NCBI GenBank assembly: GCA_036574205.1
Contig: JAINCQ010000020.1
Location: 19,688 to 83,687 of the forward strand
Length of the DNA: 64,000 bases
Direction of reading: 5' to 3'
Source: Elusimicrobiota bacterium
GTDB lineage: Bacteria > Elusimicrobiota > Elusimicrobia > Elusimicrobiales > UBA9959
The translations under genes and the position numbers were made by a program. Below the pieces are notes generated by a model. It saw nothing but the letters and a program-made list of their open reading frames with translations. It searched no databases and had not been told where the DNA came from. This document shows positions 22,293-53,080 of this stretch, piece after piece. Each line of letters opens with the position of its first letter. Positions within the stretch are counted from its first letter, which is position 1.

Positions 22293-22817
22293 ATGAAACT
22301 AAAGTTAGTTTTGCTGTTGAATATAGTGTTTTTTGTTCAAATCCCCTGTTATGCTTTTTTAATCTCCCCTTCATATAAAGTAACAAACATATCTACATAT
22401 AATACTCCAAACTCAGAATATAAAATTTCCTACAGTTACAGGCTTTTTGGCAATATAATTGGAACAGGATATGAAGGATTTAGCGGAGCAACTATAAATC
22501 TTTATCCTGAAGTCTTAGGTCTTTCCAGAGGTCCGGAGGTTACGGTTGAAAAAGCTTATGCTTTTCCAAATCCATGCAACCTGAGATATGGTTGCAATGG
22601 AGTAGCTTTTACAAAATTAACTCTTATTTGTGAAATACGCATATTTACTATCTCAGGGGAGCATGTTGCAACAATAAATAAAAATTCCAACAATGAAAGT
22701 ATAAGCTGGGATCTGAAAGATAAAAATGGCAAAATAGTTTCAAGTGGACTTTATATATTCTATATAAAAGATAATGGAGGAAATACAAGAAAAGGAAAAT
22801 TGGTAATTATAAGATGA
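22293..22817 (+). CDS. Small secreted protein with C-terminal FlgD-Ig / T9SS-C-terminal-sorting-like beta-sandwich domain
   Basis: Signal peptide MKLKLVLLLNIVFFVQIPCYAF. The C-terminus AYAFPNP...IRIFTISGEHVATI...WDLKDKNGKIVSSGLYIFYIK...KGKLVIIR matches the FlgD_ig/Por_Secre_tail pattern. I prefer ATG 22293 over the track start 22227. Confidence 0.55.
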   Translation: MKLKLVLLLNIVFFVQIPCYAFLISPSYKVTNISTYNTPNSEYKISYSYRLFGNIIGTGYEGFSGATINLYPEVLGLSRGPEVTVEKAYAFPNPCNLRYGCNGVAFTKLTLICEIRIFTISGEHVATINKNSNNESISWDLKDKNGKIVSSGLYIFYIKDNGGNTRKGKLVIIR

Positions 22818-25800
22818 AATCTTTAAATAATATTTGTGGAGGACATATGCTTTTTAGATTAATTTTATTTTTATTCTTTTTTATTCCAGCAATAAAATCA
22901 TTTTCAGGAGAAATCAAATCCGGTTCGGTTCCAAACTCAATAGTTTATCAGGGTAGGGTTGAAAAAGATAATGCGCCTTTAAATGGGCTTATGCATATAA
23001 TATTTAGAATATACGAATACCCAAGTGGAGGAACACCAGTATGGACAAGTAGTGAATATTTAACTGAAGCAAGAGCAGGTATATTTTCAGTTACAATAAG
23101 CTCAATACCAATTTCTATTTTTTCTAATGGAAAAACTCTTTATTTAGAAGTGGAGATAGAAGGCGAAAAGCTTTCACCAAGAGAGCCAATAAATAGTGTT
23201 ATATACTCAATGGTTGCTAAAAAACTTGAAGATGGGGCATTTGTTCATTTTAGCTCTTTTACTGTTGGAACAAACCCAAATGCAATAGGCCCTTCAGGTC
23301 AAAGAGCAATAATACTGGATGGGGGAATATATACAGACAGGATATGCTTCACGGATAATAGTTGTATATCTACAGTCGGAGGATCATCGGCAGTTAATGA
23401 GGTATTCTCATCGACAACCGTTTATTTACGATCTGATAGCGACAACAATGGAAGTGGGGATATAATTTTTCAAACAGCTACAACACCTAAAGCTATAATA
23501 ACAAACTCAGGTAATATGGGAATAGGGACAACTACACCTTCTGAAAAACTTGTAGTAAATGGAAGCGCTACAATAACAAATAACCTCATAATTGGCGAAA
23601 ATCTCTATTTATCTGGAAATTTTAACAATGGAATAATAAGAGGAATAAATAATGAACAAATAAGTATTGGACAAAGTAATGATAGAATAGATTTTATTAT
23701 AAATGGTTCAACTCAAATAACTGTAAATAATGATAGACTTGGTATAGGAACGCCAAACCCATCTGAAAAACTTGATGTTAACGGCAATATAAAGGCGCAA
23801 GACATAACCGCAAATAACCTCATAGTTTCAAACGAAATAAAAAACAATACTGGAAATCTTATAATTCAAAAAACTGTTTTATCAAATGTTGGTATAGGAA
23901 CTGATACCCCAAAAGAAAAACTTCATGTTGCTGGAACGATTAAAGCAGACCTTGGAATATCAGCAGCCACAGCTACCTTCACTTCAGATGTTAATATTTT
24001 AGGCAATTTAAATGTAAGCAATTTTGGAAGGACTATTACTCTTTCATCTACCACAATTTATGGAACTCTTGATGTAAAAGGTGGATTTACTTTAAATAAT
24101 GATAATATAGCAGCTTTAGCATCAACTCAAACCTTTACTGCTCAAAATACTTTTTTAAATCAACTTACAATTTCAAGCCATGTTTTAATAAATAATTTTT
24201 CAAGGCTTGCAGTTGGTTCCCAGAGTTTTATATATCCCATGTCAACCTATCTTCAGATAGGGGACTCAAATCTAACCTCTTCAACTGCAACTCTATATAT
24301 GTCAGCAGGAGCAAATTCAAACGGCAATATAATTTTTTATAGGGGATCAAATAAAGTGGCTTCTATTAAAACATCCGGAAATAATTTAAATATTACATAT
24401 GGAAACTCTGATATACAAAAAACTTATATAGATGAGTCACATTTTAAAATTTATAATTCTACTGTTATAATTTCTCCATCAACTGATGATTTAAACCCTG
24501 CAATTTATGTAAGTGGAAATTCAAACGTAGGTATAGGAACTACTAACGCAAATCACAAACTTACTGTTGCCGGAAATATCAAATTAACTGGAGTTGGAAC
24601 TGGAATAATTTTTAATGATGGTACAATACTTACATCAAGCGGTTCTCTATCTGTTGGAGCGATATCAAATACAGGTGATGCGGTCATAGTTGCTGACTCA
24701 GACAATAATGGTTATGGTTCTATAGTGATGAAAGTAAAAGATAACACAGCAATGGCAATAGATAATACGGCAAAAATAGGAATAGGGACTCTTTCTCCTT
24801 CCGATAAACTTCAAGTTATAGGTGGAGATGTTGTTATAGGAAACACATTAAATCCCTATTCTCAGGACGGCAAAGAAGACCTTATAGTCGCCGGGAATAT
24901 AGAAGTTGATGGGATGTTAAAACAAAGATCTTCAATACCAGTTGAGTTTACCTCATTATATGTATCCAATGATGTATTTCTTTCAACTGCTTCAGGATAT
25001 AGAACAGGGATAGGGACCATTTCTCCGTCTGAAAAATTGGATGTGAATGGAAATATAAGAGCAACTGGAAACATAAAAATAGAAGGGTTAAGCGCAAGTA
25101 GAATAGTTGCAACTGATGGATTTAAGATTCTTTCAAGTTCTATAACAGCTGATAACCTTAGAAGTTCGGTTTCAGGCACAACGGGGACTGGCAATCTCGT
25201 TTTTAATACTGTCCCTTCCTTTACAACAGGAATAACTGTAAATGGATATGGAAACTTTACAGGAATCACTGCCTCAAGCGGAACATTCACTGCCACAGGT
25301 CAATATAGTATTCAAAGTTCATCTGGAATTTTAATTTCAGCCGGAACAGTCAATCTAAACAATACTGCAAGAATAAAAAATTCACCTGAGCCACTTGAAA
25401 ATCAGGATGTTGCGACAAAATATTATGTAGATCAAATTGGTGGGGGAGCAAGCGATGTAGGAGCATGGGTCAAAACTGGAAATAATCTTGGAACATATAA
25501 TAAATTAGGGAGCACAAACCCAAAAGATGTTGTTTTTATAAGAAACAACTCGACTCAATTTACTATGACAGCTTCTGGTGTAAATTTTTCTGTACCAATT
25601 TTATCAGGATATTCTATTACTGCCTCAAGTGGAACATTTACAGCCACTGGTCAATATAGTATTCAAACTTCATCTGGGATTTTAATTTCAGCCGGGACAG
25701 TCAATCTAAACAATACTACAAGAATAAAAAATTCACCTGATCCACTGGAAAATCAGGATGTTGCGACAAAATATTATGTAGATCAAATTGGCGGGGGAGC

Positions 25801-27031
25801 AAGCGATGTAGGAGCATGGGTCAAAACTGGAAATTCTCTTGGAATATATAACAAATTAGGAAGTACAAACTCAAAAGATGTTATTTTTATAAGGGACGAC
25901 ATAACTCAATTTAGTATGACAGCTTCTGGTGTAAATTTTTCTGTACCAATTTTATCAGGATATTCTATTACTGCCTCAAGTGGAACATTTAGCTCTGGAA
26001 TACAGGTAAATAGTGGAAAAATAGTAACTCCTGCTTTTCAAATGACTACTGGCGCCTCAGACGGATACTTTTTGGTATCAGATGGAGCTGGTAATGCTAT
26101 ATGGAAAGACGCAACCAGTGCAGGGTTGGGTGATAAAGTAGTTGGAAATGAAGTACTTGATTCTTATGATAGCTCTTTAACAAGGACAGGTAGTGGAACA
26201 TCTCTATCTCCATATAAATTAAAACTTAATCTTTCAAATCCAAATACATGGACCGCCACTCAAACTTTTAACAAGGGAATTACTGCTTCAACAATTACTG
26301 TCTCAGGATTTTCAACTGCTGGTTTTGTCAAAAATGATGCAAGTGGAAATTTAAGCGGTGGAAATTCAATTTCCGCCACAGATATCCCAAGAAGTAGTCT
26401 TGTTAATGGTACAGGCATAAGTATGACTGGAACTTTAACAAATAGACTTGTAGGTTCTGAAGGTAATGTTACTATAAATGTAGCAGCAAATGTTCCCACT
26501 TCTGTTACTAATGATACAAATGTAACTGGTTCTATAACAAGTAACGTTTTAACTTTGGGGTGGGCAGGACAACTTGGATTAAGTAGAGGTGGAACAGGTG
26601 CTGATTTAAGCGGTGCTGCAGACGGTCCTATTAAAAAATCTGGATCGTCTTTAGGAGTTTATGCTATAAGTCTTTCAACAGATGTGGTTGGAACCCTCCC
26701 AGCTTTAAAAGGCGGAACTGGAATAAGCGGAGCAGGTGGAACTGCAAATAGAATTTTATTAACTACTAATGGCTCAAGTTGGTCGGCAGGACAAATTAAT
26801 TTAAATTCAGATCAAGTCACCAATACTCTACCGGTTTCTAAAGGCGGAACTGGAAGCACATCTTATACAACAAACCGGCCAATAATTTATAATGGCACAA
26901 ATTTAGTTTCATTCAACGGTTTTAATGGAAGTTTTACCGTTGCAAAATCAACTAATCCAGCTGCCGGTTGTATGCAATTAAATTACCAATATGGCATATT
27001 AACTTCAACCGATAGTGTTTCATGCCCATAA
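22814..27031 (+). CDS. Giant secreted repeat protein with tail-fibre-like motifs (putative cell-surface fibre/adhesin)
   Basis: 1405 aa with a signal-like N-terminus (LFRLILFLFFFIPAIKSFSG). It carries six GIGTxxPxxKLxVxG motifs, two NSP(E/D)PLENQDVATKYYVDQ motifs and three xxGGTGx motifs near the C-terminus. It is Thr/Ser/Gly/Asn-rich, and its start overlaps the previous stop (ATGA). Confidence 0.7.
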   Translation: MKSLNNICGGHMLFRLILFLFFFIPAIKSFSGEIKSGSVPNSIVYQGRVEKDNAPLNGLMHIIFRIYEYPSGGTPVWTSSEYLTEARAGIFSVTISSIPISIFSNGKTLYLEVEIEGEKLSPREPINSVIYSMVAKKLEDGAFVHFSSFTVGTNPNAIGPSGQRAIILDGGIYTDRICFTDNSCISTVGGSSAVNEVFSSTTVYLRSDSDNNGSGDIIFQTATTPKAIITNSGNMGIGTTTPSEKLVVNGSATITNNLIIGENLYLSGNFNNGIIRGINNEQISIGQSNDRIDFIINGSTQITVNNDRLGIGTPNPSEKLDVNGNIKAQDITANNLIVSNEIKNNTGNLIIQKTVLSNVGIGTDTPKEKLHVAGTIKADLGISAATATFTSDVNILGNLNVSNFGRTITLSSTTIYGTLDVKGGFTLNNDNIAALASTQTFTAQNTFLNQLTISSHVLINNFSRLAVGSQSFIYPMSTYLQIGDSNLTSSTATLYMSAGANSNGNIIFYRGSNKVASIKTSGNNLNITYGNSDIQKTYIDESHFKIYNSTVIISPSTDDLNPAIYVSGNSNVGIGTTNANHKLTVAGNIKLTGVGTGIIFNDGTILTSSGSLSVGAISNTGDAVIVADSDNNGYGSIVMKVKDNTAMAIDNTAKIGIGTLSPSDKLQVIGGDVVIGNTLNPYSQDGKEDLIVAGNIEVDGMLKQRSSIPVEFTSLYVSNDVFLSTASGYRTGIGTISPSEKLDVNGNIRATGNIKIEGLSASRIVATDGFKILSSSITADNLRSSVSGTTGTGNLVFNTVPSFTTGITVNGYGNFTGITASSGTFTATGQYSIQSSSGILISAGTVNLNNTARIKNSPEPLENQDVATKYYVDQIGGGASDVGAWVKTGNNLGTYNKLGSTNPKDVVFIRNNSTQFTMTASGVNFSVPILSGYSITASSGTFTATGQYSIQTSSGILISAGTVNLNNTTRIKNSPDPLENQDVATKYYVDQIGGGASDVGAWVKTGNSLGIYNKLGSTNSKDVIFIRDDITQFSMTASGVNFSVPILSGYSITASSGTFSSGIQVNSGKIVTPAFQMTTGASDGYFLVSDGAGNAIWKDATSAGLGDKVVGNEVLDSYDSSLTRTGSGTSLSPYKLKLNLSNPNTWTATQTFNKGITASTITVSGFSTAGFVKNDASGNLSGGNSISATDIPRSSLVNGTGISMTGTLTNRLVGSEGNVTINVAANVPTSVTNDTNVTGSITSNVLTLGWAGQLGLSRGGTGADLSGAADGPIKKSGSSLGVYAISLSTDVVGTLPALKGGTGISGAGGTANRILLTTNGSSWSAGQINLNSDQVTNTLPVSKGGTGSTSYTTNRPIIYNGTNLVSFNGFNGSFTVAKSTNPAAGCMQLNYQYGILTSTDSVSCP
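23519..25051 (+). repeat. Six dispersed intragenic copies of the GIGTxxPxxKLxVxG motif
   Basis: MGIGTTTPSEKLVVNG, LGIGTPNPSEKLDVNG, VGIGTDTPKEKLHVAG, VGIGTTNANHKLTVAG, IGIGTLSPSDKLQVIG and TGIGTISPSEKLDVNG, read from the translation. Confidence 0.8.
25270..25995 (+). repeat. Intragenic tandem duplication, period 351 bp (117 aa), two full copies plus the start of a third
   Basis: TGCCTCAAG recurs at 25270, 25621 and 25972. The copies align without indels, with roughly two dozen substitutions by eye. Confidence 0.9.
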
Positions 27032-37054: not shown

Positions 37055-37815
37055 TATTCTTTTATAAGTTTATCAAGTAATTCTGAAGGTATATCAAAAT
37101 TAGAAAAAACATTTTTTACATCATCATGATTTTCAAGCTCATCCATCATAGTAACTATCTTTTCTGCCAGCTCAGCATCTGAAACTTTAACCTCATTTTT
37201 AGGTATCATTGTGGCTTCCGCAGAAGAAACATTTATTTTTCTTTCAATAAGTTTATTTTTAATTTCTTCAACCTTATCAGGAGAAACAAAAATTTCATAA
37301 AACTCAGTATCCGGTTCATTTTTAATATCTTCCGCTCCTACATCTAATGCTATATTAAAAAGATCATCTTCAGAAATAGAATTTTTAGGAACTGTTATAT
37401 ATCCTCTTCTTTCAAAAATCCAGCTAACACAACCAGTAGTTCCCATATTTCCGCCATGTCGTTCAAGTATAACTCTGAGTTCATTAAAAGTCCTATTTTT
37501 ATTATCAGTTGTTGCATCAATCATTACAGCAATACCAGCTGGTCCATAACCTTCATAAGTTATTTCTTCATAAACGGCTCCTGGTATCTGTCCAGTTCCT
37601 CTCATTATTGCTCTTTTAACATTATCAAGCGGCATATTTACTTCTTTCGCGTCATCAATAGCCTTTCTCAATCTTGGATTTTTGTCTGGGTCTCCACCAC
37701 CCATTTTTGCAGCAACTGTTATTTCCTTTATTAATTTTGTATAAATTTTGCCTTTTTTTGCATCATTTGCAGCTTTCTTATGTTTAATTCCAGCCCAATG
37801 CGAATGTCCACCCAT
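37054..37815 (-). CDS. yebC: YebC/PmpR family DNA-binding transcriptional regulator
   Basis: MGGHSHWAGIKHKKA N-terminus and YEGYGPAGIAV, 253 aa. Confidence 0.9.
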   Translation of the reverse strand: MGGHSHWAGIKHKKAANDAKKGKIYTKLIKEITVAAKMGGGDPDKNPRLRKAIDDAKEVNMPLDNVKRAIMRGTGQIPGAVYEEITYEGYGPAGIAVMIDATTDNKNRTFNELRVILERHGGNMGTTGCVSWIFERRGYITVPKNSISEDDLFNIALDVGAEDIKNEPDTEFYEIFVSPDKVEEIKNKLIERKINVSSAEATMIPKNEVKVSDAELAEKIVTMMDELENHDDVKNVFSNFDIPSELLDKLIKE

Positions 37816-37854
37816 AACTGTTCCTCCTTAATTTATCGCAATATCTTACTATAC

Positions 37855-37883
37855 AGACTAATATTTATTTTATAAAATATAAT
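37855..37883 (+). promoter_or_regulatory. Possible sigma-70-type promoter for tRNA-Arg
   Basis: Perfect TATAAT at 37878-37883, 22 nt before the tRNA 5' end, with a weak -35 (AGACTA) at 17-nt spacing. An AT-rich background makes chance matches likely. Confidence 0.3.
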
Positions 37884-37904
37884 CTTATTTTACAAACTGT
37901 CCGT

Positions 37905-37977
37905 GCCCCCTTAGCTCAAAGGATAGAGCAGCTGCCTTCGAAGCAGTCGGTTAGAGGTTCGAGTCCTCTAGGGGGCA
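37905..37977 (+). tRNA. tRNA-Arg (anticodon TCG)
   Basis: Hand-folded cloverleaf: acceptor GCCCCCT/AGGGGGC, D arm GCTC/GAGC, anticodon arm GCTGC-CTTCGAA-GCAGT, T arm AGAGG-TTCGAGT-CCTCT and discriminator A. CCA is not encoded. Confidence 0.9.
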
Positions 37978-38345
37978 TGCTGGTACTGACCAACAGCGGT
38001 AAGCTGTTGCGCGAGGTGAGAACAGCCTTTAGAGCAAAACCTAAACGGTTTTGCGTGCTGTTCGCAAGGCCGCAGTTTGCCTTGGGCTATGCAGGCAAAC
38101 GAGGCGGGGTCGCGCAAGCCGTCAGGGCTATGCGTGACAGAACAGCCTTTAGAGCAAAACCTAAACGGTTTTGCGTGCTGTTCGCAAGGCCGCAGTTTGC
38201 CTTGGGCTATGCAGGCAAACGAGGCGGGGTCGCGCAAAGCCCACCAGGCTTATGCGTGACTCGAAAGCCCGCAGGCAAACTTGGGCATACAGTTTGCCGA
38301 GGGGGAAGGGTTTGAGAAAAATTTTGCAGTGAGCAAAATTTATTT
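37978..38345 (+). ncRNA. Candidate structured RNA or structured repeat block of unknown class, contiguous with tRNA-Arg
   Basis: G+C is 55-60% (33/60 and 36/60 in two counted lines) against about 28% in flanking coding sequence. It has multiple nested perfect helices and ends at the AT-rich hairpin AAATTTTGC-AGTGA-GCAAAATTT (38319-38341). I do not see conserved cores of RNase P, tmRNA, SRP or 6S RNA. Confidence 0.3.
38019..38237. repeat. Tandem direct repeat: 99-bp perfect unit, 120-bp period, two copies plus a diverged partial third linker
   Basis: 38019-38117 is identical to 38139-38237. The 21-bp linker GCCGTCAGGGCTATGCGTGAC recurs in diverged form at 38239-38262. Confidence 0.95.
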
Positions 38346-38374
38346 GTAGAAAAGTTCCTTTTAAATATTAAAAT

Positions 38375-38528
38375 CCCTTCCCCCTTGATGGGGGAAGGTG
38401 AGGATGAGGGTGAAATAATTAAATCTCCTTGCTGATGCTTATGTTTCCTCTCACTTGATAGGAGAAGAATAAGGTGAGGGTGAAAAATAAAATCTCCTCA
38501 CCCTAACCCTCTCCAAAAAAGGAGAGGG
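38375..38528. repeat. Three copies of a small G/C-arm hairpin plus GGTGAGGGTGA-type tail element (two on +, one inverted)
   Basis: E1 is CCCTTCCCCC-TTGAT-GGGGGAAGG+TGAGGATGAGGGTGAAA (38375-38415). E2 is CCTCTCA-CTTGAT-AGGAGAAG...AAGGTGAGGGTGAAAA (38446-38485). E3 is CTCACCCTAA+CCCTCTCC-AAAAAA-GGAGAGGG (38494-38528), the same architecture on the opposite strand. Confidence 0.7.
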
Positions 38529-38665
38529 AATATAACAATTAAACCGTCCCGGAAGGTAATACTCAAAAGTCTGCAGCAAAATATTTAATACAACAAACCC
38601 CATTTTTTTGAATTGCTCATATATTAATGCCTCATAAAACAAGATGTTTTGTATAATATTTTAAT

Positions 38666-40690
38666 ATGAAAAATATTTTAGTATTCTTAATCATAGTCTT
38701 CCATTATTCTTTTTTAACTGCAGTTGAAGATTTAAACAAAATATATGAGGGAGCTGTAAATTCTTGGAAACACGGCAGGGTATCAGATGCAATTGGCGGA
38801 TTTGAATATATTGTTTATAATTCAACAGATGATGATATAACACTCAAGGCAGGAAGGGAACTGGTAACGCTTTTAAATGAAACGAATGAAAACTCTCTTG
38901 CTATCGCATATATAGATAAATTAAAAGCTATTTCCAAAAATGATCCATATCTTGAATTTGAAAAGGGGATTGCTCTTTATTCCTTAAATAAATATAAACA
39001 GGCTGAGGAATCTTTTGATAACATTTTTACTATGACATCAGATGAAGATCTGATATTTTTTTCAAGATTTATAAAATCAATGCTTGAAATGGATTTAAGT
39101 GGTTATGAAAAAGCATTGGATGAACTTCAGACTGTTTATAAAAGATATCCTGCGCTTCTTGCGCCGTCAACATATATGGTTTCTTATCTATATAAAAAAC
39201 TTGGGAAAAAAATGCCAGCTTTAAATTTCTTGAAAGACTCCTTAAAATACGATTCTCAAAACATTCAGGCTTTAATAGATTTAGCGCAAATCTATGATGA
39301 TGCATCTTACTACTTACCTGCCTGGCAGTCATATTTCACATTAAAACAATTAGACTATACAAATCCATATTTTGAAAAAAAATCTAATAAGCTTATAAAA
39401 AAACTTGGGAAAAAACCTGATGAAATATTTTACTGGTCAAGGCTTGGCTGGCCGGTGCATAACGAACCGCTTAAAAACACAAAAAAACTAACACCATTAA
39501 AAATAGGATTATACTGCGATAATTTAAAAAATCTTTCTTACCTTGATTCATTTTATTTTATATCCAACTCAGATTTTGAAATCTATGATAGTGTTTTAGG
39601 TAAAACATTTTCAGGTAAAAAAAATATGCAATATAAAGTTGAGTATATAAAGTCCAACAGGATATATGAACTTAAAGATAACTCAAATTCAAAACTATAC
39701 TCCACACGTGTTAATTTTGAAATAAGACTTAAAGATCCAAATGGGGTTATCCTTATCAAAAACCCATCTATTCTAAAAGATTTCTTTGGGGTTAACAGAA
39801 GCGATAAAGAGGTCTCTAATAAGATAGAGATTATCGTTTCAACAACTGGAATGAAATTAATAAATCATACTTATTTAGAACATATACTCCCATCAATTGT
39901 CTCTTCTATAAAAGGACCAAAAGAAACATATGAGGTTATAAAAGCGCTTACAATACTTGTAAGAACAAAATTAACTAAGGATATAACGGAGAAAAAAACA
40001 TATATACCTGACAATGATGATTTATTTGAATTTAAAGGTTTACAATATGAAAAAGAACAATATGTATCTGCCATGAATGAGACAGCTGATAGTATTTTGA
40101 TAGATAAAAATTCATCTATTTACAATGTTTTTTACTCCATAAACGCAGCAGGAATGACATACTCAAATGTAAATGATAATTCATCAAAACCAGAATATAT
40201 TACGCCATTTTCACTTTTTAAATGGTTAGCATTTGATTTCTTAAAAAAACCAGCATACTCTCTTCCCATAGATCAAACCCAGCTTTCTGAAGCTATATGG
40301 CTTTTGGTTCTTGAACCAAAATGGATTGAAGATAGGATAAATGAAAAGTATAAAGTTGGTAAGATAAAAAACATAATAGTTTTAAAAAGAGATGATTTTG
40401 GTATAGTAAAATCTATTAAAATAGAAGGGACAGCCGCTGATATTGAAATAAATGGAGAAAAGGAGATATCGAGATTTATTTCAGGGGGGGTATTAAGGTC
40501 AAATCTTTTTTTTATAAGACCAATTATGAAAGGCAATTTTCCACGCTTTTTTATTGTAAGAGGTGCAGGAACAGGTAATTTTAAAGGAATGTGTATATAT
40601 GGCGCAAATTACCTTGCCAAAAATATGGGCTATAAATATAATCAAATAATAAGACACTACTTCCCGGATGCAGTATTAAAGGAAAAATGA
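38666..40690 (+). CDS. TPR-containing SpoIID/LytB-family paralog with a degenerate catalytic signature
   Basis: Signal peptide, an N-terminal TPR-like helical repeat region and a C-terminal SpoIID-like region. That region aligns without gaps to the canonical paralog in this window (EHILPSIVSSIKGPKETYEVIKALTILVRTKLTK vs ERYLWGVLGPEMGVSWPIEALKAQAVAARTYTLK) and ends ...GAGTGNFKGMCIYGA...IIRHYFP. Confidence 0.65.
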   Translation: MKNILVFLIIVFHYSFLTAVEDLNKIYEGAVNSWKHGRVSDAIGGFEYIVYNSTDDDITLKAGRELVTLLNETNENSLAIAYIDKLKAISKNDPYLEFEKGIALYSLNKYKQAEESFDNIFTMTSDEDLIFFSRFIKSMLEMDLSGYEKALDELQTVYKRYPALLAPSTYMVSYLYKKLGKKMPALNFLKDSLKYDSQNIQALIDLAQIYDDASYYLPAWQSYFTLKQLDYTNPYFEKKSNKLIKKLGKKPDEIFYWSRLGWPVHNEPLKNTKKLTPLKIGLYCDNLKNLSYLDSFYFISNSDFEIYDSVLGKTFSGKKNMQYKVEYIKSNRIYELKDNSNSKLYSTRVNFEIRLKDPNGVILIKNPSILKDFFGVNRSDKEVSNKIEIIVSTTGMKLINHTYLEHILPSIVSSIKGPKETYEVIKALTILVRTKLTKDITEKKTYIPDNDDLFEFKGLQYEKEQYVSAMNETADSILIDKNSSIYNVFYSINAAGMTYSNVNDNSSKPEYITPFSLFKWLAFDFLKKPAYSLPIDQTQLSEAIWLLVLEPKWIEDRINEKYKVGKIKNIIVLKRDDFGIVKSIKIEGTAADIEINGEKEISRFISGGVLRSNLFFIRPIMKGNFPRFFIVRGAGTGNFKGMCIYGANYLAKNMGYKYNQIIRHYFPDAVLKEK

Positions 40691-50914: not shown

Positions 50915-53080
50915 ATGATTTTTATGACAAAAAGAAAAAGGCAAAACGAATCTATTCAAATCAAATCAAATGAAGATTTATTTAAAAAGAAAAACATTAT
51001 AGCTTTTTTCTTCCTTATTATCATCTCATATTTTACACTCAAAACATATTTTTTGAGATTTCCCATTAATATAGAAGCTTTTATTTCTTCATTAAACCCG
51101 TTTGAATACCTAACATTAAATATTTATAAAACTGCCTATTATAATCTAAAAGAAATTTCTAAAATGATCCTTTTACTATTATCTATTTTAGGATGGGGAA
51201 ATATTGCGATAAAAATATCAAAAATAAATGAAGATACAAAAGAAAACCTTATCCTTAAATATGCTCTGGGACTATGCATCATATCAGCATTTTCTATGTT
51301 AACAGGTTTTTTAGGATTAATAAAGACTACTCTATATATAGGCTTTCTTACAACAGGCATTTTTATCTGGTTTTATTATTTCATCAAATCAGGGTATAAA
51401 ATTAAAACATCATTCAAAACAGATATAATTTCTAATAAGATATTCTTCATTATTTTTTTGATTATTGTCGTTATAAATTTAGTTCAATCCCTTGCTCCGG
51501 AAATATTCTATGATACTCTCGTATATCACCTTGGAGTGCCAAAATGGTGGTTCCTCGAAGGGAAGATAAAGGATATGCAATACAATATCTACAGTAAACT
51601 GACCTTAAATCATTCGGTTATATATCTTTTTTCTCTTGTAAATTTTGGAGAACAGACTCCGCTTCTGGCAAATTTTCTCACTTCAATATTTTGTTTTATA
51701 GCAATAGGATGGGGATTTAGAAAATATATCACGGAAAAAACCTCGCTTACTGCAGCAATTATTTTTTATTCAATATTTCATGTCTCTCAATCATCTCAAT
51801 CTGCTACAAGCGATATTATAGCAGCTTTTTTTATCATTATCTCTTTTTATTCCATGATAAAATACACTGAAACAGGCAGGAAAATATGGCTTATCTATAC
51901 AGGACTTTTTTGTGGATTGGCTTTTGGAACTAAATATAACACCGCATTTATAATAATAGCCATATTTTTAATCAATATTTATAAACAAATAAAAGAAAAA
52001 AGACTTTCTTTTAAACAAACACTAATTGAAACCCTTCTGTTCTCAGCATTTTTCTCTGTTTTTACATTTCCATGGTTAGTTAAAAATTTTTTAAACTATT
52101 CAAATCCCTTATTTCCTTTTGCGTATTCAATCTTTAACAAAAATCTCTCTTCTATAGACACAGATAAAATAAATGGACTTATGCTTGAAATAAAACAGTT
52201 TCAAAAGTTTGATTTTATATCATGGATTAAGCATCCTTTTCTTATTTCAACAGGACAGATTCCAAACTCCGAATTTTTTACTCCATTATTTATGCTTGTT
52301 CTTCCTCTTGGATTATTCAACAAAAAAAGAAAAGAGTTTTTAGCTTATCTCTGGCTTACCTTTGGCTTTTCCTGGTTTATGTGGTCTTTTAGTTCTACAA
52401 CAATAAGACACCTTTTTTCTTCATATTTTGCTGCTTCTATTATAGCCGCATATTACATAAATGAAGCTTTTTATGGGATTACTCAAAAAATGCTTAAATT
52501 TCTTTTTTACCTTATACTGATATCAACTATATACTGGCTGATATTATCTATGAAAAACGAAGGCAGATATCTTGTGGTCACAGGAGTTATATCAAAGGAT
52601 GAATATCTTTCCGTTTCTCATCCAAGATATCCAAATCCATCTTATGCGGTTTATAAATATATAAACGAAAATCTTAAAACTTCCGATAGAATTTTAATAA
52701 TAGGTGATTCAAAAACATTCTATCTTGATAGACGTTTTGAAGCAAGCTCAGTCTTTGACCGAAATCTTTTAATAGATACTGTTATAACCTCGAAAAAACC
52801 GCAGGATATATATTTAAAATTAAAAGAAAAAGGGATAACACATATTCTTCTAAATGTAAATGAGGCTTTCAGGACAAATAAGGGTTATAACATCTTCTAC
52901 TGGGAACCTGGCGAAATATCAAAGTTTCACGATTTTTTCAATAAACATCTTTCTATAGAAAAAGACTATGAAAAAATAGCTGATGGAAGATATCTGGAAA
53001 AAGTTATTCTTTATAGGCTTGTAGAGAATAATCAAAATCCATCCGTAGATTATATATCACAAATATCAAACTTGAAATAG
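50915..53080 (+). CDS. Large polytopic membrane protein, GT-C-fold (ArnT/PMT-like) glycosyltransferase candidate with a C-terminal soluble domain
   Basis: 721 aa with at least 10 hydrophobic helices over the first roughly 520 aa, then a soluble tail. Its general architecture resembles GT39/GT83 enzymes. The start is uncertain, as it lies only 35 nt from the divergent ribBA start. Confidence 0.4.
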   Translation: MIFMTKRKRQNESIQIKSNEDLFKKKNIIAFFFLIIISYFTLKTYFLRFPINIEAFISSLNPFEYLTLNIYKTAYYNLKEISKMILLLLSILGWGNIAIKISKINEDTKENLILKYALGLCIISAFSMLTGFLGLIKTTLYIGFLTTGIFIWFYYFIKSGYKIKTSFKTDIISNKIFFIIFLIIVVINLVQSLAPEIFYDTLVYHLGVPKWWFLEGKIKDMQYNIYSKLTLNHSVIYLFSLVNFGEQTPLLANFLTSIFCFIAIGWGFRKYITEKTSLTAAIIFYSIFHVSQSSQSATSDIIAAFFIIISFYSMIKYTETGRKIWLIYTGLFCGLAFGTKYNTAFIIIAIFLINIYKQIKEKRLSFKQTLIETLLFSAFFSVFTFPWLVKNFLNYSNPLFPFAYSIFNKNLSSIDTDKINGLMLEIKQFQKFDFISWIKHPFLISTGQIPNSEFFTPLFMLVLPLGLFNKKRKEFLAYLWLTFGFSWFMWSFSSTTIRHLFSSYFAASIIAAYYINEAFYGITQKMLKFLFYLILISTIYWLILSMKNEGRYLVVTGVISKDEYLSVSHPRYPNPSYAVYKYINENLKTSDRILIIGDSKTFYLDRRFEASSVFDRNLLIDTVITSKKPQDIYLKLKEKGITHILLNVNEAFRTNKGYNIFYWEPGEISKFHDFFNKHLSIEKDYEKIADGRYLEKVILYRLVENNQNPSVDYISQISNLK

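What the first reader, a model, noticed from the sequence alone, without database searches (positions are those of the whole stretch)
37978..38345. GC-rich, helix-dense non-coding block with a perfect 99-bp unit repeated at 120-bp period, fused to the 3' end of tRNA-Arg
Composition flips directly after the tRNA discriminator base. I count 33/60 and 36/60 G+C in 38041-38100 and 38101-38160, against 17/60 in a nearby coding line (38701-38760). 38019-38117 and 38139-38237 are identical. Each unit folds on paper into nested helices. GAACAGC (38020-26) pairs with GCTGTTC (38057-63), enclosing GCAAAACC-TAAAC-GGTTTTGC (38034-54). GTTTGCC (38075-81) pairs with GGCAAAC (38094-100), and flanking CCGC/GCGG can extend that stem. 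TTGCGCG (38007-13) can close unit 1 by pairing with CGCGCAA (38111-17). A separate hairpin CAACAGC-GGTAA-GCTGTTG (37991-38009) precedes it. The block ends at an AT-rich hairpin (38319-38341). The three ORFs the track draws through it are Arg/Ala/Gly-rich read-throughs of the repeat on both strands. In an AT-rich genome such a block is the classic footprint of a structured RNA, possibly co-transcribed with the tRNA, or of a foreign structured repeat. I cannot place it in any family I know.
Basis: seen in the sequence. Interest (0 to 1): 0.7.

Follow-up and report, generated by a model that had tools for sequence, protein, structure and literature searches.

The report
Duplicated hairpin-rich tail of tRNA-Arg
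A GC-rich, hairpin-packed stretch directly behind a tRNA-Arg gene in an AT-rich Elusimicrobiota genome is a lineage-specific tRNA "tail" shared with a few related species and recently enlarged here by a 2 x 120-base tandem duplication; it is most likely an unclassified structured trailer RNA, its function is unknown, and related species do without it.

Summary
tRNA-Arg(TCG) lies at 37904-37978. It is followed by a block of 57% G+C in a 31% G+C window, with a perfect 99-nt repeat at 120-nt period and eight perfect GC-containing hairpins in 540 nt.

It matches no Rfam family and no phage or plasmid record. None of its six reading frames resembles any known protein. No mobile-element gene lies nearby, and no second copy exists in the 64 kb.

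Relatives keep the gene order yebC | tRNA-Arg | 674-aa gene. Five lineages have no tail. Three or four carry a homologous core tail of about 125 nt. It has hairpin hp0, the motif GCGAGG-ACTCGAAAG-CCCGCAG, hairpin B and a long AT-rich hairpin. The stems change by compensatory substitutions, and conserved G-U pairs favour the tRNA strand.

The window's block is this core tail with two 120-nt three-hairpin units inserted into one of its loops. In one relative the tail is tandemly repeated together with the last 17 nt of the tRNA. It also carries an 11-nt antisense copy of the T-arm.

Best reading (about 0.5): an unclassified structured 3' trailer RNA of tRNA-Arg that grows by local duplication.

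Main rival (about 0.3): neutral hairpin minisatellite DNA.

Interest is moderate. Transcription and function are untested.

The parts
37904..37978 (+). tRNA-Arg (anticodon TCG). CCA is not encoded. The discriminator base A is followed by TGCTGG.
   Evidence: ARAGORN. Rfam RF00005, 70.1 bits. The same tRNA sits next to yebC in all relatives examined.
37979..38018 (+). 5' part of the conserved core tail: TGCTGGT, hairpin hp0 (CAACAGC GGTAA GCTGTTG, 37991-38009) and the GCGAGG motif (38011-38016).
   Evidence: Orthologous to L017, L013 and L020. In hp0, 3 of 7 pairs covary with no mismatch among 6 sequences.
38019..38138 (+). Unit 1 of the tandem repeat. It has three hairpins.
- hpA, 38020-38063: outer stem GAACAGC/GCTGTTC, inner hairpin 38034-38054.
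- hpB, 38070-38107: CCGC-A-GTTTGCCT, loop TGGGCTATGC, AGGCAAAC-GAG-GCGG.
- hpC, 38109-38138: GTCGCGCAAGCC, loop GTCAG, GGCTATGCGTGAC, with one G-U pair.
   Evidence: repeat. (perfect stems). (MFE -57.3 kcal/mol, z = -4.0, three hairpins). Absent from the orthologous tails of L017 and L013.
38139..38260 (+). Unit 2. Its first 99 nt are identical to unit 1. hpC (38229-38260) differs only by a new loop (CACCA for GTCAG) and by one added A and one added T, which together add an A-U pair.
   Evidence: identity and the two linker sequences. (same three-hairpin fold, 13-bp hpC).
38259..38311 (+). 3' part of the core tail: ACTCGAAAG-CCCGCAG (38259-38273), then hairpin B' (38274-38298). The stem arms of B' are swapped relative to the units (GGCAAACT ... 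AGTTTGCC), but the loop is kept (TGGGCATAC). GAGGGGG follows.
   Evidence: Homologous to the L017 tail: local score 60-66 against a shuffle maximum of 31; nhmmer E = 1.9e-6 and 3.4e-8. Pair table.
38312..38349 (+). Conserved long AT-rich hairpin that ends the core tail (core 38319-38341, then ATTTGTAG).
   Evidence: RNAalifold on window plus L017: 15 shared pairs, 2 compensatory double changes, 2 conserved G-U pairs plus one U-G/C-G pair. No U-tract follows in L017.
38359..38544 (.). Second, separate structured cluster, possibly unrelated. It is an imperfect palindrome with 70-nt-period repeats, including the hairpins CCTTCCCCC TTGAT GGGGGAAGG (38376-38398) and CCCTCTCC AAAAAA GGAGAGGG (38507-38528).
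   Evidence: D3, I1, I8.. (self reverse-complement hit, E = 3e-7). (z = -5.2). No homologue was found in any relative.

Best explanation
The block is the 3' trailer of tRNA-Arg(UCG). It is a structured tail specific to one clade of AT-rich Elusimicrobiota, part of which lives in hot springs.

The ancestral form is a core of about 125 nt:
- hairpin hp0;
- a small hairpin GCGAGG / ACUCGAAAG / CCCGC, whose 5' arm and loop together are antisense to the tRNA's own T-loop and 3' T-stem;
- hairpin B, with a conserved loop motif (C)AUAC/CUAUGC;
- a long AU-rich hairpin.

In the window's genome two 120-nt units were inserted in tandem into the loop of the small hairpin. Each unit has three hairpins (A, B, C) and is itself a diverged paralogue of the tail. 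This tripled the length of the tail.

Inferred mechanism: the tail is transcribed from the conserved tRNA promoter as part of the pre-tRNA. RNase Z cuts it off after the discriminator base, because CCA is not encoded. It then persists as a stable, GC-rich, hairpin-dense RNA. New modules arise by slippage or template switching between the many direct and inverted repeats.

What is shown: position, strand, repeat, hairpins, orthology, compensatory changes, and the absence of coding potential and of mobile-element genes.

What is inferred: transcription, RNase Z release, stability, and any role. If there is a role, I think the likeliest is local: protecting or insulating the 3' end of the tRNA transcript, or modulating tRNA folding through the anti-T-arm motif. 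A trans-acting decoy that presents repeated loop motifs is less likely (about 0.2).
For: 1. Position and strand. The tail starts at the base after the discriminator, on the tRNA strand. No promoter-like or terminator-like site lies between it and the tRNA.

2. Orthology.
- The gene order yebC(-) | tRNA-Arg(+) | 674-aa gene(+) is conserved.
- L017 (YebC 81% identical to the window's) has the whole core tail.
- L013 has the first 52 nt.
- L020 has the first 37 nt, up to the end of its contig.
- Window against L017: local score 60-66 against a shuffle maximum of 31; nhmmer E = 1.9e-6 and 3.4e-8.

3. Structure is conserved while sequence changes.
- hp0/hpA: 3 of 7 pairs covary and 0 of 42 cells are mismatched.
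- hpB: 6 of 8 pairs differ between copies while pairing is kept in the window copies.
- AT-rich hairpin: 15 shared pairs, 2 double compensatory changes, 2 conserved G-U pairs plus one U-G/C-G pair.
- hpC: unit 2 gains an A and a T that add one pair.

4. Strand. Every module folds better on the + strand, for example -31.6 against -23.4 kcal/mol for the terminal part. G-U pairs would be A-C mismatches on the other strand.

5. Composition. G+C is 57%, like the tRNA (58%), in a 31% genome. A tail-less relative comes from the Mushroom Spring hot-spring mat (IMG 3300005452; PMC4911352).

6. Not coding., and the stop after 20 codons in the L017 tail.

7. Not dispersed, and no partner gene. There is no other copy in the window or in any held locus. 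Only housekeeping genes lie between 17.5 and 61.7 kb.

8. Anti-T-arm motif. GAGGACTCGAA is present in L017 and L013, with 0/1000 and 3/1000 shuffles reaching the score.
Against: - There are no expression data of any kind.
- The tail is dispensable. Five related lineages (L002-L010, L015, L016, L018, L021) lack it. L014 has an unrelated GC-rich block at the same place.
- Only two full-length and two partial orthologues exist, too few for a statistical covariation test. Hairpins in DNA (quasi-palindromes) can also be kept by template-switch repair without any RNA function.
- The two units are identical over 99 nt, so they say nothing about selection.
- In the window the anti-T-arm motif is split by the insertion, so that pairing cannot be essential.
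- No recognisable terminator ends the proposed transcript.
Confidence: 0.5

Rival explanations
1. Neutral DNA. The block is a hairpin-rich minisatellite that builds up next to the tRNA gene through replication slippage and template switching on quasi-palindromes. It partly copies tRNA sequence in direct and inverted orientation. It may be transcribed passively but does nothing.
For: - Tandem duplication occurs in at least two lineages with different unit boundaries: 120 nt in the window, and 142 nt including the last 17 nt of the tRNA in L017.
- The Logan contig L012 stops exactly 30 nt into the repeat seen in L017, as expected for a k = 31 graph.
- An 11-nt inverted copy of the T-arm lies in the tail.
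- The stem arms of hpB are swapped wholesale, which is not a pattern of point mutation.
- Turnover is very fast: the tail is absent, truncated or replaced in close relatives.
- The 99-nt identity indicates a very recent event.
Against: - The core tail is alignable between lineages whose other intergenic DNA is not.
- Linear motifs (GCGAGG, ACTCGAAAGCCCGCAG, CATACA, ATTTGTAG) and all three stems are kept, with compensatory changes and conserved G-U pairs on one strand.
- Neutral DNA in a 31% G+C genome should drift towards A+T.
Confidence: 0.3
2. Recombination scar. The tail and its repeats are leftovers (att-site arrays, or a miniature cis-mobilisable element) of integrative elements that target the T-loop to 3'-end segment of tRNA-Arg.
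For: - The second unit of L017 begins inside the T-loop (GAGTCCTCTAGGGGGCG). From general knowledge, this is the identity block typical of T-loop-targeting tyrosine integrases.
- The site is a hotspot. L014 carries a different block. L025 carries an IS-like insertion between the tail region and the downstream gene.
Against: - No integrase, transposase or island lies within 20 kb. Both flanking genes are syntenic with tail-less relatives.
- Both att-like copies in L017 are followed by the same sequence, which indicates tandem duplication rather than integration.
- The window's units have no significant similarity to the tRNA.
- Scans of viral contigs for the tRNA-end-plus-tail junction found nothing. 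The three hits to the tail motif are at the rate I estimate for chance matches and have unrelated contexts.
Confidence: 0.1
3. Dispersed repeat. The 120-nt unit is a REP/BIME-like or MITE-like element of this genome, seen here as a local cluster.
For: Clusters of GC-rich palindromes in intergenic DNA, tandemly amplified, are what BIME-type REP clusters look like (general knowledge). Relatives carry other small GC-rich hairpins in nearby spacers.
Against: - No second copy of any sub-motif exists in 64 kb, even with 3 mismatches, or in any held locus.
- The hairpin-B pattern gave only one chance hit in 185,579 species-representative genomes.
- The unit has no terminal inverted repeats and no target-site duplication, and no RAYT or IS200-like gene lies in the stretch scanned, 17.5-61.7 kb.
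- The rest of the source genome could not be searched.
Confidence: 0.05
4. Assembly artefact. The tandem repeat or a junction was created by the assembler.
For: Short-read metagenome assemblies can mis-join at repeats. The copy number of a 120-nt tandem repeat is hard to fix with short reads. The right junction has no independent check.
Against: - An independent Logan assembly reproduces the tRNA/block junction and then breaks inside unit 1, as expected for a true repeat.
- The two units have different linkers (21 and 23 nt), which anchor them.
- Both ends of the block are orthologous to the tails of relatives.
Confidence: 0.03

Closest known systems
tRNA 3' external transcribed spacer RNAs, such as 3'ETS-leuZ of the E. 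coli glyW-cysT-leuZ operon, which acts as a sponge for the sRNAs RyhB and RybB (general knowledge; referred to in PMC6191717, found)
   Same: The sequence lies directly 3' of a tRNA on the same strand, would be made as part of the pre-tRNA, and could be released by 3' processing. It is a by-product that can acquire a function.
   Different: 3'ETS-leuZ is short, weakly structured, Hfq-dependent and not repeated. This tail is 370 nt, 57% G+C, built of hairpin modules and tandemly duplicated. No target, Hfq site or transcript is known for it.
GC-rich islands that mark structural RNA genes in AT-rich thermophile genomes (concept from Klein, Misulovin and Eddy 2002; general knowledge)
   Same: The signal is the same one that flagged this block: a sharp G+C peak, equal to that of the neighbouring tRNA, in a 31% G+C genome whose clade includes hot-spring organisms.
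   Different: That work concerned archaeal hyperthermophiles and stand-alone RNA genes. Here the island is an appendage of a tRNA gene and is absent from sister lineages.
REP/BIME clusters and intergenic VNTR or MIRU-type minisatellites of bacteria
   Same: Intergenic palindromic modules amplified in tandem, with copy number varying between close relatives.
   Different: REP and BIME elements are dispersed in tens to hundreds of copies and are linked to RAYT transposases. Here there is a single locus, no second copy in 64 kb and no such gene.
Modular protein-sponge RNAs (CsrB/RsmZ type)
   Same: One transcript would be built from repeated hairpins that present the same short loop motif (here GGGCUAUGC/GGGCAUAC, three hpB loops in the window), and it grows by internal duplication.
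   Different: The block's loops carry no GGA motifs. No partner protein is known. The repeats are identical rather than degenerate. The link to a tRNA is not a feature of that class.
Partial tRNA 3'-end direct repeats (attL/attR) left by integrative elements that target tRNA genes
   Same: L017 carries a second copy of the tRNA from the T-loop to the 3' end, 142 nt downstream of the first.
   Different: Nothing lies between the copies but the tail itself. The same sequence follows both copies, and no integrase is present. The window itself has no tRNA fragment.

Membership tests
Any Rfam 15 family (4227 covariance models) | Score at or above the family's gathering threshold | tested here: not met
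   Only tRNA passes in the window. With relaxed filters on 37700-38800, the best non-tRNA hit overlapping the GC-rich block scores 17.5 bits against a cut-off of 85. The stronger non-tRNA hits, up to 22.9 bits, lie in the downstream cluster or on the tRNA itself. In the relatives L013, L014, L017 and L020 only tRNA appears at E <= 0.05.
REP/BIME | Many dispersed copies of the palindromic unit in intergenic regions of the same genome | tested here: not met
   No other copy exists in the 64-kb window with up to 3 mismatches or by nhmmer. The rest of the genome could not be searched.
REP/BIME | An associated RAYT (IS200/IS605-like TnpA) gene in the genome | tested here: inconclusive
   None among the ORFs of at least 140 aa between 17.5 and 61.7 kb. 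The rest of the genome was not available.
MITE | Terminal inverted repeats and a target-site duplication flanking the unit | tested here: not met
   The unit ends (AGAACAGCC ... ATGCGTGAC) are not inverted repeats. The inverted repeats found are internal hairpins. Comparison with L013 and L017 shows only an ambiguous TG/TGA at the insertion boundaries.
CRISPR array | Repeats of 23-50 nt separated by unique spacers of similar length, usually with cas genes | tested here: not met
   The repeat is 99 nt and the variable linkers are 21 and 23 nt, with two copies only. The CRISPR-DR models of Rfam give no hit in the block. No cas-like Pfam hit in the scanned neighbourhood.
tRNA 3'-ETS-derived RNA | Lies between the tRNA 3' end and the end of the tRNA transcription unit, on the same strand | tested here: inconclusive
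   Same strand, contiguous with the discriminator base, and no promoter-like site in between. The end of the transcription unit cannot be located, because no canonical terminator is present.
tRNA 3'-ETS-derived RNA | A detectable, processed transcript | not testable with these tools
   No expression data are available.
Intrinsic (Rho-independent) terminator, for the hairpin at 38312-38349 | A G+C-rich stem followed directly by a U-tract | tested here: not met
   The stem is A+U-rich. ATTTGT pairs within the stem. The sequence that follows is AGAAAAG in the window and AGAGTCC in L017. The terminator scan does not flag it.
Integrative-element att scar at a tRNA gene | A direct repeat of the tRNA 3' segment bounding foreign DNA, with an integrase | tested here: not met
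   The window has no tRNA-derived repeat and no integrase. L017 has the repeat, but it bounds only the tail itself.
Type III toxin-antitoxin antitoxin array (ToxI-like) | A tandem array of short (about 36-45 nt) repeats directly upstream of a toxin endoribonuclease gene | tested here: not met
   The period is 120 nt. The downstream gene encodes a conserved 674-aa TPR/SpoIID-like protein and has a conserved promoter-like sequence of its own close to the start codon.
Protein-coding gene | An ORF conserved in relatives, or similarity to known proteins | tested here: not met
   The six-frame query found nothing at E <= 10 among 5.8 billion proteins. Pfam gave only sub-threshold noise. The frame is interrupted in the L017 orthologue.

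The most novel reading that the evidence does not exclude
The tail is a functional, self-expanding modular RNA tethered to tRNA-Arg(UCG). Its ancestral hairpin carries, across its 5' arm and loop, an 11-nt antisense sequence to the tRNA's own T-loop and T-stem, and so controls folding or maturation of this rare tRNA, or acts in trans on it. Duplicated modules, identical except for a replaced hpC loop (GUCAG versus CACCA), act as a multivalent decoy or scaffold. That would be a new class of tRNA-linked regulatory RNA found so far only in a hot-spring clade of Elusimicrobiota.
Probability: 0.1. Interest if true: 0.75.

Novelty: new variant of a known kind. Interest (0 to 1): 0.4.

Why it matters
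If the tail is a real RNA, it adds a structured, modular and evolutionarily traceable example to the very short list of bacterial tRNA-trailer RNAs, from a phylum with no experimental RNA biology. It also shows such an RNA being built step by step: core tail, then loop insertion, then tandem units.

The anti-T-arm motif gives a concrete hypothesis to test about control of tRNA maturation.

If the tail is neutral, it is a clean natural example of how hairpin-rich DNA next to a tRNA gene grows by slippage and template switching. It would also be a caution that G+C peaks in AT-rich genomes are not always functional RNA genes.

In either case it is a lineage-restricted, dispensable element, so its wider impact is moderate.

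Tried and rejected
- Known RNA families: none match.
- Phage or plasmid origin: blastn found nothing.
- Scan of species-representative genomes with a degenerate hairpin-B pattern: one hit, in a Longimicrobiales coding region with no stem, so a chance match.
- Scans of viral contigs. The tRNA-end-plus-tail pattern and the hairpin-B pattern gave nothing. The tail motif GCRAGGACTCGAAAGCCC gave three hits. One is in a coding region. Two are the same terminator-like hairpin in an AT-rich contig. By my rough estimate this is about the number expected by chance.
- Homology of the unit junctions (GGGCTATGCGTGAC) to the tRNA 3' end plus tail start: not significant.
- Derivation of the units, or of the downstream cluster, from the tRNA in either orientation: not significant.
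- Replication origin. The cumulative GC skew has a local minimum, and gene orientation diverges, near 38 kb. However, the skew follows gene strand throughout the window, and no DnaA box lies near the block.
- Leader or riboswitch of the downstream gene. In relatives that gene has a conserved promoter-like sequence next to its ATG, and the tail is absent from many of them.
- Right-hand contigs of the L017 species (L025-L027): they do not reach the tail.
- A covariance model of hairpin B was not built. MAFFT put the L017 stem out of register, and three sequences give little power.
Full report
**1.

ARAGORN and Rfam place tRNA-Arg(TCG) at 37904-37978 on the + strand. The sequence that follows switches from about 31% to 57% G+C. 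It is the only long G+C peak in the 64-kb window.

38019-38117 and 38139-38237 are identical, at a period of 120 nt.

Perfect hairpins with at least 7 bp and at least 4 G-C pairs occur eight times in 37991-38528. They occur only three times in the remaining 63.5 kb. The region folds far better than dinucleotide shuffles, with z = -6.9 on the + strand and -8.3 on the - strand.

An independent Logan assembly of SRR15502205 (L001) reproduces the tRNA/block junction and runs to 38044, inside unit 1. The left junction is therefore not a chimera, and a real repeat breaks the assembly graph there.

**2. Anatomy**

Each 120-nt unit folds into three hairpins.
- hpA has an outer stem GAACAGC/GCTGTTC around an inner hairpin GCAAAACC-TAAAC-GGTTTTGC.
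- hpB is CCGC-A-GTTTGCCT, loop TGGGCTATGC, AGGCAAAC-GAG-GCGG.
- hpC is GTCGCGCAAGCC, loop GTCAG, GGCTATGCGTGAC, with one G-U pair.

The two units differ only in hpC. The loop is replaced (GTCAG becomes CACCA). One A and one T are added on opposite arms, which lengthens the stem by one A-U pair.

Before the units lie TGCTGGT, hairpin hp0 (37991-38009) and GCGAGG. After them lie ACTCGAAAG-CCCGCAG and a further B-type hairpin (38274-38298). In that hairpin the seven-base stem arms are swapped relative to the units, while the loop and the flanks are kept. A long AT-rich hairpin follows at 38312-38349.

**3. What it is not**

- It matches no Rfam family, even with relaxed filters.
- It has no similarity to phage or plasmid records.
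- It is not coding. Pfam gives only sub-threshold noise for the ORFs that cross it. A concatenated six-frame translation finds nothing at E <= 10 among 5.8 billion proteins.
- No other copy of its sub-motifs exists in the window, even with three mismatches.
- All neighbouring genes are housekeeping: yebC, ruvCAB, spoIID, queA and tgt upstream; a TPR/SpoIID-like 674-aa gene, two glycosyltransferases, yceD and plsX downstream. No integrase, transposase, reverse transcriptase or cas gene lies between 17.5 and 61.7 kb.
- No DnaA boxes lie near it.

**4. Source and relatives**

The window comes from an Elusimicrobiota MAG: its YebC is 100% identical to P0001, and its downstream protein carries the locus tag K6357_04520. 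The closest other YebC proteins are 77-81% identical. I fetched their contigs.

The arrangement yebC(-) | tRNA-Arg(TCG)(+) | 674-aa gene(+) is conserved.

Five lineages have only a short AT-rich spacer after the tRNA. These are L002-L010, L015, L016, L018 and L021. One of them is from the Mushroom Spring hot-spring mat metagenome, IMG 3300005452 (PMC4911352).

Other lineages carry a homologous tail.
- L017 has tRNA + TGCTGGTTCTAA + [GAAATGC GAATA GCATTTC] + GCGAGGACTCGAAAGCCCGCAG + [hairpin B] + GAGGGGCGG + [long AT-rich hairpin] + ATTTGTAG.
- L013 has the first 52 nt.
- L020 has the first 37 nt, up to the end of its contig.

**5. The window's block is this core tail plus an insertion**

With 38019-38258 removed, the window aligns to L017 from end to end. 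The local score is 60-66 against a shuffle maximum of 31. nhmmer gives E = 1.9e-6 and 3.4e-8.

The 240 nt (2 x 120) sit between GCGAGG(TG) and ACTCGAAAG. In L017 and L013, GCGAGG and CCCGC can pair around ACUCGAAAG. This pairing is my reading of the sequence; RNAfold pairs this stretch differently in L017. On that reading the units were inserted into the loop of that small hairpin.

The units themselves are only weak paralogues of the tail. TCGCAAGGCCGCAG plus hpB resembles TCGAAAGCCCGCAG plus hpB', with 17 of 500 shuffles reaching the score.

**6. Evidence that the hairpins matter**

- Across six hp0/hpA sequences, three of seven pairs covary (C-G/G-C/A-T, C-G/A-T and A-T/T-A). None of the 42 cells is mismatched.
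- In hpB, six of eight pairs differ between copies. The two window versions are perfectly paired. L017 has a tandem G-A/A-G mismatch.
- The AT-rich hairpin shares 15 pairs between the window and L017, with two double compensatory changes, two conserved G-U pairs and one U-G/C-G pair.
- Every module is more stable on the + strand.

Taken together this favours a structure read on the tRNA strand, that is, RNA. With two full-length and two partial orthologues it is not a statistical proof.

**7. Evidence for local duplication dynamics**

In L017 the tail is followed by GAGAG and then by a second copy of GAGTCCTCTAGGGGGCG. That copy is the tRNA from inside the T-loop to its 3' end. The same tail follows again, with one mismatch, up to the contig end. 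This makes a 142-nt tandem unit.

A Logan contig of the same species from another sample (L012) stops exactly 30 nt into that repeat. A k = 31 assembly graph would do exactly this, so the repeat has independent support. L020 also ends inside hp0.

L017 and L013 carry GAGGACTCGAA, the exact reverse complement of the tRNA's TTCGAGTCCTC (T-loop plus 3' T-stem). Only 0/1000 and 3/1000 shuffles reach that score. In the window the inserted units split this motif.

These features, together with the swapped hpB arms and the 99-nt identity next to a replaced loop, point to repeated slippage, template switching and gene conversion in a quasi-palindromic region.

L014 has an unrelated GC-rich hairpin block of about 370 nt at the same site, with a remnant of hp0. 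L025 has an IS-like insertion upstream of the downstream gene. The spacer is clearly a hotspot.

**8. Interpretation**

The best-supported reading (about 0.5) is a lineage-specific, structured 3' trailer of tRNA-Arg(UCG). It would be made from the conserved tRNA promoter, because no other promoter-like site intervenes. RNase Z would release it, an inference from the absence of an encoded CCA. In this genome a recent tandem duplication enlarged it.

I commit to a local role as the most likely one: 3'-end protection or insulation, or modulation of tRNA folding through the anti-T-arm motif. A trans-acting decoy role is less likely.

The main rival (about 0.3) is that the whole block is neutral hairpin minisatellite DNA. 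The two readings are compatible as origin and present state. Recombination scar (0.1), dispersed REP/MITE-like repeat (0.05) and assembly artefact (0.03) are less likely, for the reasons given under each.

**9. Comparison with what is known**

The block behaves like a tRNA 3'-ETS RNA in position, and like a VNTR or BIME cluster in dynamics. It meets the defining features of none of the families tested: Rfam families, REP/BIME, MITE, CRISPR, intrinsic terminator, att scar and type III antitoxin array.

I rate it a new variant of a known kind (a tRNA-trailer RNA, or an intergenic hairpin repeat). Interest is moderate (0.4). It is well defined and traceable through evolution. However, related lineages do without it, it is confined to one small clade, and there is no evidence yet for transcription or function.

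Noticed in passing
window 38346-38565: A second, separate structured cluster lies after the tail. It is an imperfect palindrome of about 185 nt (self reverse-complement nhmmer hit, E = 3e-7) with 70-nt-period repeats (GGTGAGGGTGAAA twice) and a fold z of -5.2. The segment 38300-38313 (AGGGGGAAGGGTTT) can pair with 38372-38385 instead of the local hairpin 38376-38398, giving an alternative structure that bridges the tail's AT-rich hairpin. No homologue was found in any relative.
   Followed up: partly
L014 1-572 (reverse strand), ENA ERZ27247228 k141_598112: A relative (YebC 81% identical to the window's) has an unrelated GC-rich, hairpin-dense block of about 370 nt directly after the same tRNA-Arg. 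It contains only a remnant (GAAATGCGAAT) of the tail's first hairpin. A perfect DnaA-box sequence, TGTGGATAA, lies near the contig end.
   Followed up: partly
L017 3356-3555 (JGI Ga0067045_1003885) and L012 1-30: The tail is tandemly repeated (142-nt unit) together with the last 17 nt of the tRNA, starting inside the T-loop. A Logan contig from another sample stops exactly 30 nt into this repeat. The number of units is unknown, because both contigs end there.
   Followed up: partly
L017 3401-3411 and L013 (tail positions 32-42): GAGGACTCGAA in the tail is the exact reverse complement of the T-loop plus 3' T-stem of the adjacent tRNA (TTCGAGTCCTC). In the window it is split into GAGG (38013-38016) and ACTCGAA (38259-38265) by the two inserted units.
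   Followed up: yes
window 38075-38100 versus 38274-38298: The two arms of hairpin B are exchanged wholesale (GTTTGCC...GGCAAAC against GGCAAAC...GTTTGCC). The loop and flanks keep their sequence and orientation. Simple inversion does not produce this pattern, and neither do point mutations.
   Followed up: no
L001 position 1 (= window 38044): The Logan contig of the source organism ends at 38044. That is 4 nt short of the 38048 expected from a k = 31 graph with the two-unit structure. It may indicate a sequence variant in the hpA inner loop or a further copy with a different left flank.
   Followed up: no
L025 1-247 (JGI Ga0078972_1014426): In the L017-like species the spacer upstream of the 676-aa gene holds two direct repeats GTAACATTTTACATGAYTTGAT and the N-terminus of a minus-strand ORF (MKDTQVRYQRAENRKQKSRIISEVV...) that runs off the contig. 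It looks like the end of an insertion sequence.
   Followed up: no
window 38620-38668; L018 1385-1425; L015, L016, L025: The 674-aa TPR/SpoIID-like gene has a conserved promoter-like sequence (TTGACT, 17 nt, TATTAT in relatives; TGTATAAT in the window) only about 10-17 nt before its ATG, with no Shine-Dalgarno sequence. The mRNA may be leaderless or nearly so.
   Followed up: no
window 25268-25991, within ORF 22814-27031 (+): A 351-nt tandem repeat (2.1 copies, 93% identical) lies inside a 1405-aa ORF with no Pfam match. It is probably a repetitive surface protein.
   Followed up: no
L002 4860-4990, L015 2880-2990, L018 about 1180-1230: Tail-less relatives carry other small GC-rich hairpins between yebC and the tRNA promoter, such as GCAGGGCTTTAGCCCTGC, TCCCCCTTTATTAAAGGGGGA and GCTCCGACGATACGTCGGAGC. 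The promoter region TTATTTTATAAAATATAAT is conserved in every relative.
   Followed up: no
L015 3756-4246: ruvC is split into two ORFs (71 and 89 aa) in this JGI contig. This is either a frameshift or pseudogene, or a sequencing error.
   Followed up: no
L002 2451-4640 versus window 50915-53080: In the P0005 lineage a PMT_2 glycosyltransferase gene follows the tRNA-Arg. In the window a PMT-family gene (not checked for orthology) lies 13 kb away and the 674-aa gene follows the tRNA. A rearrangement may have its breakpoint at this spacer.
   Followed up: no
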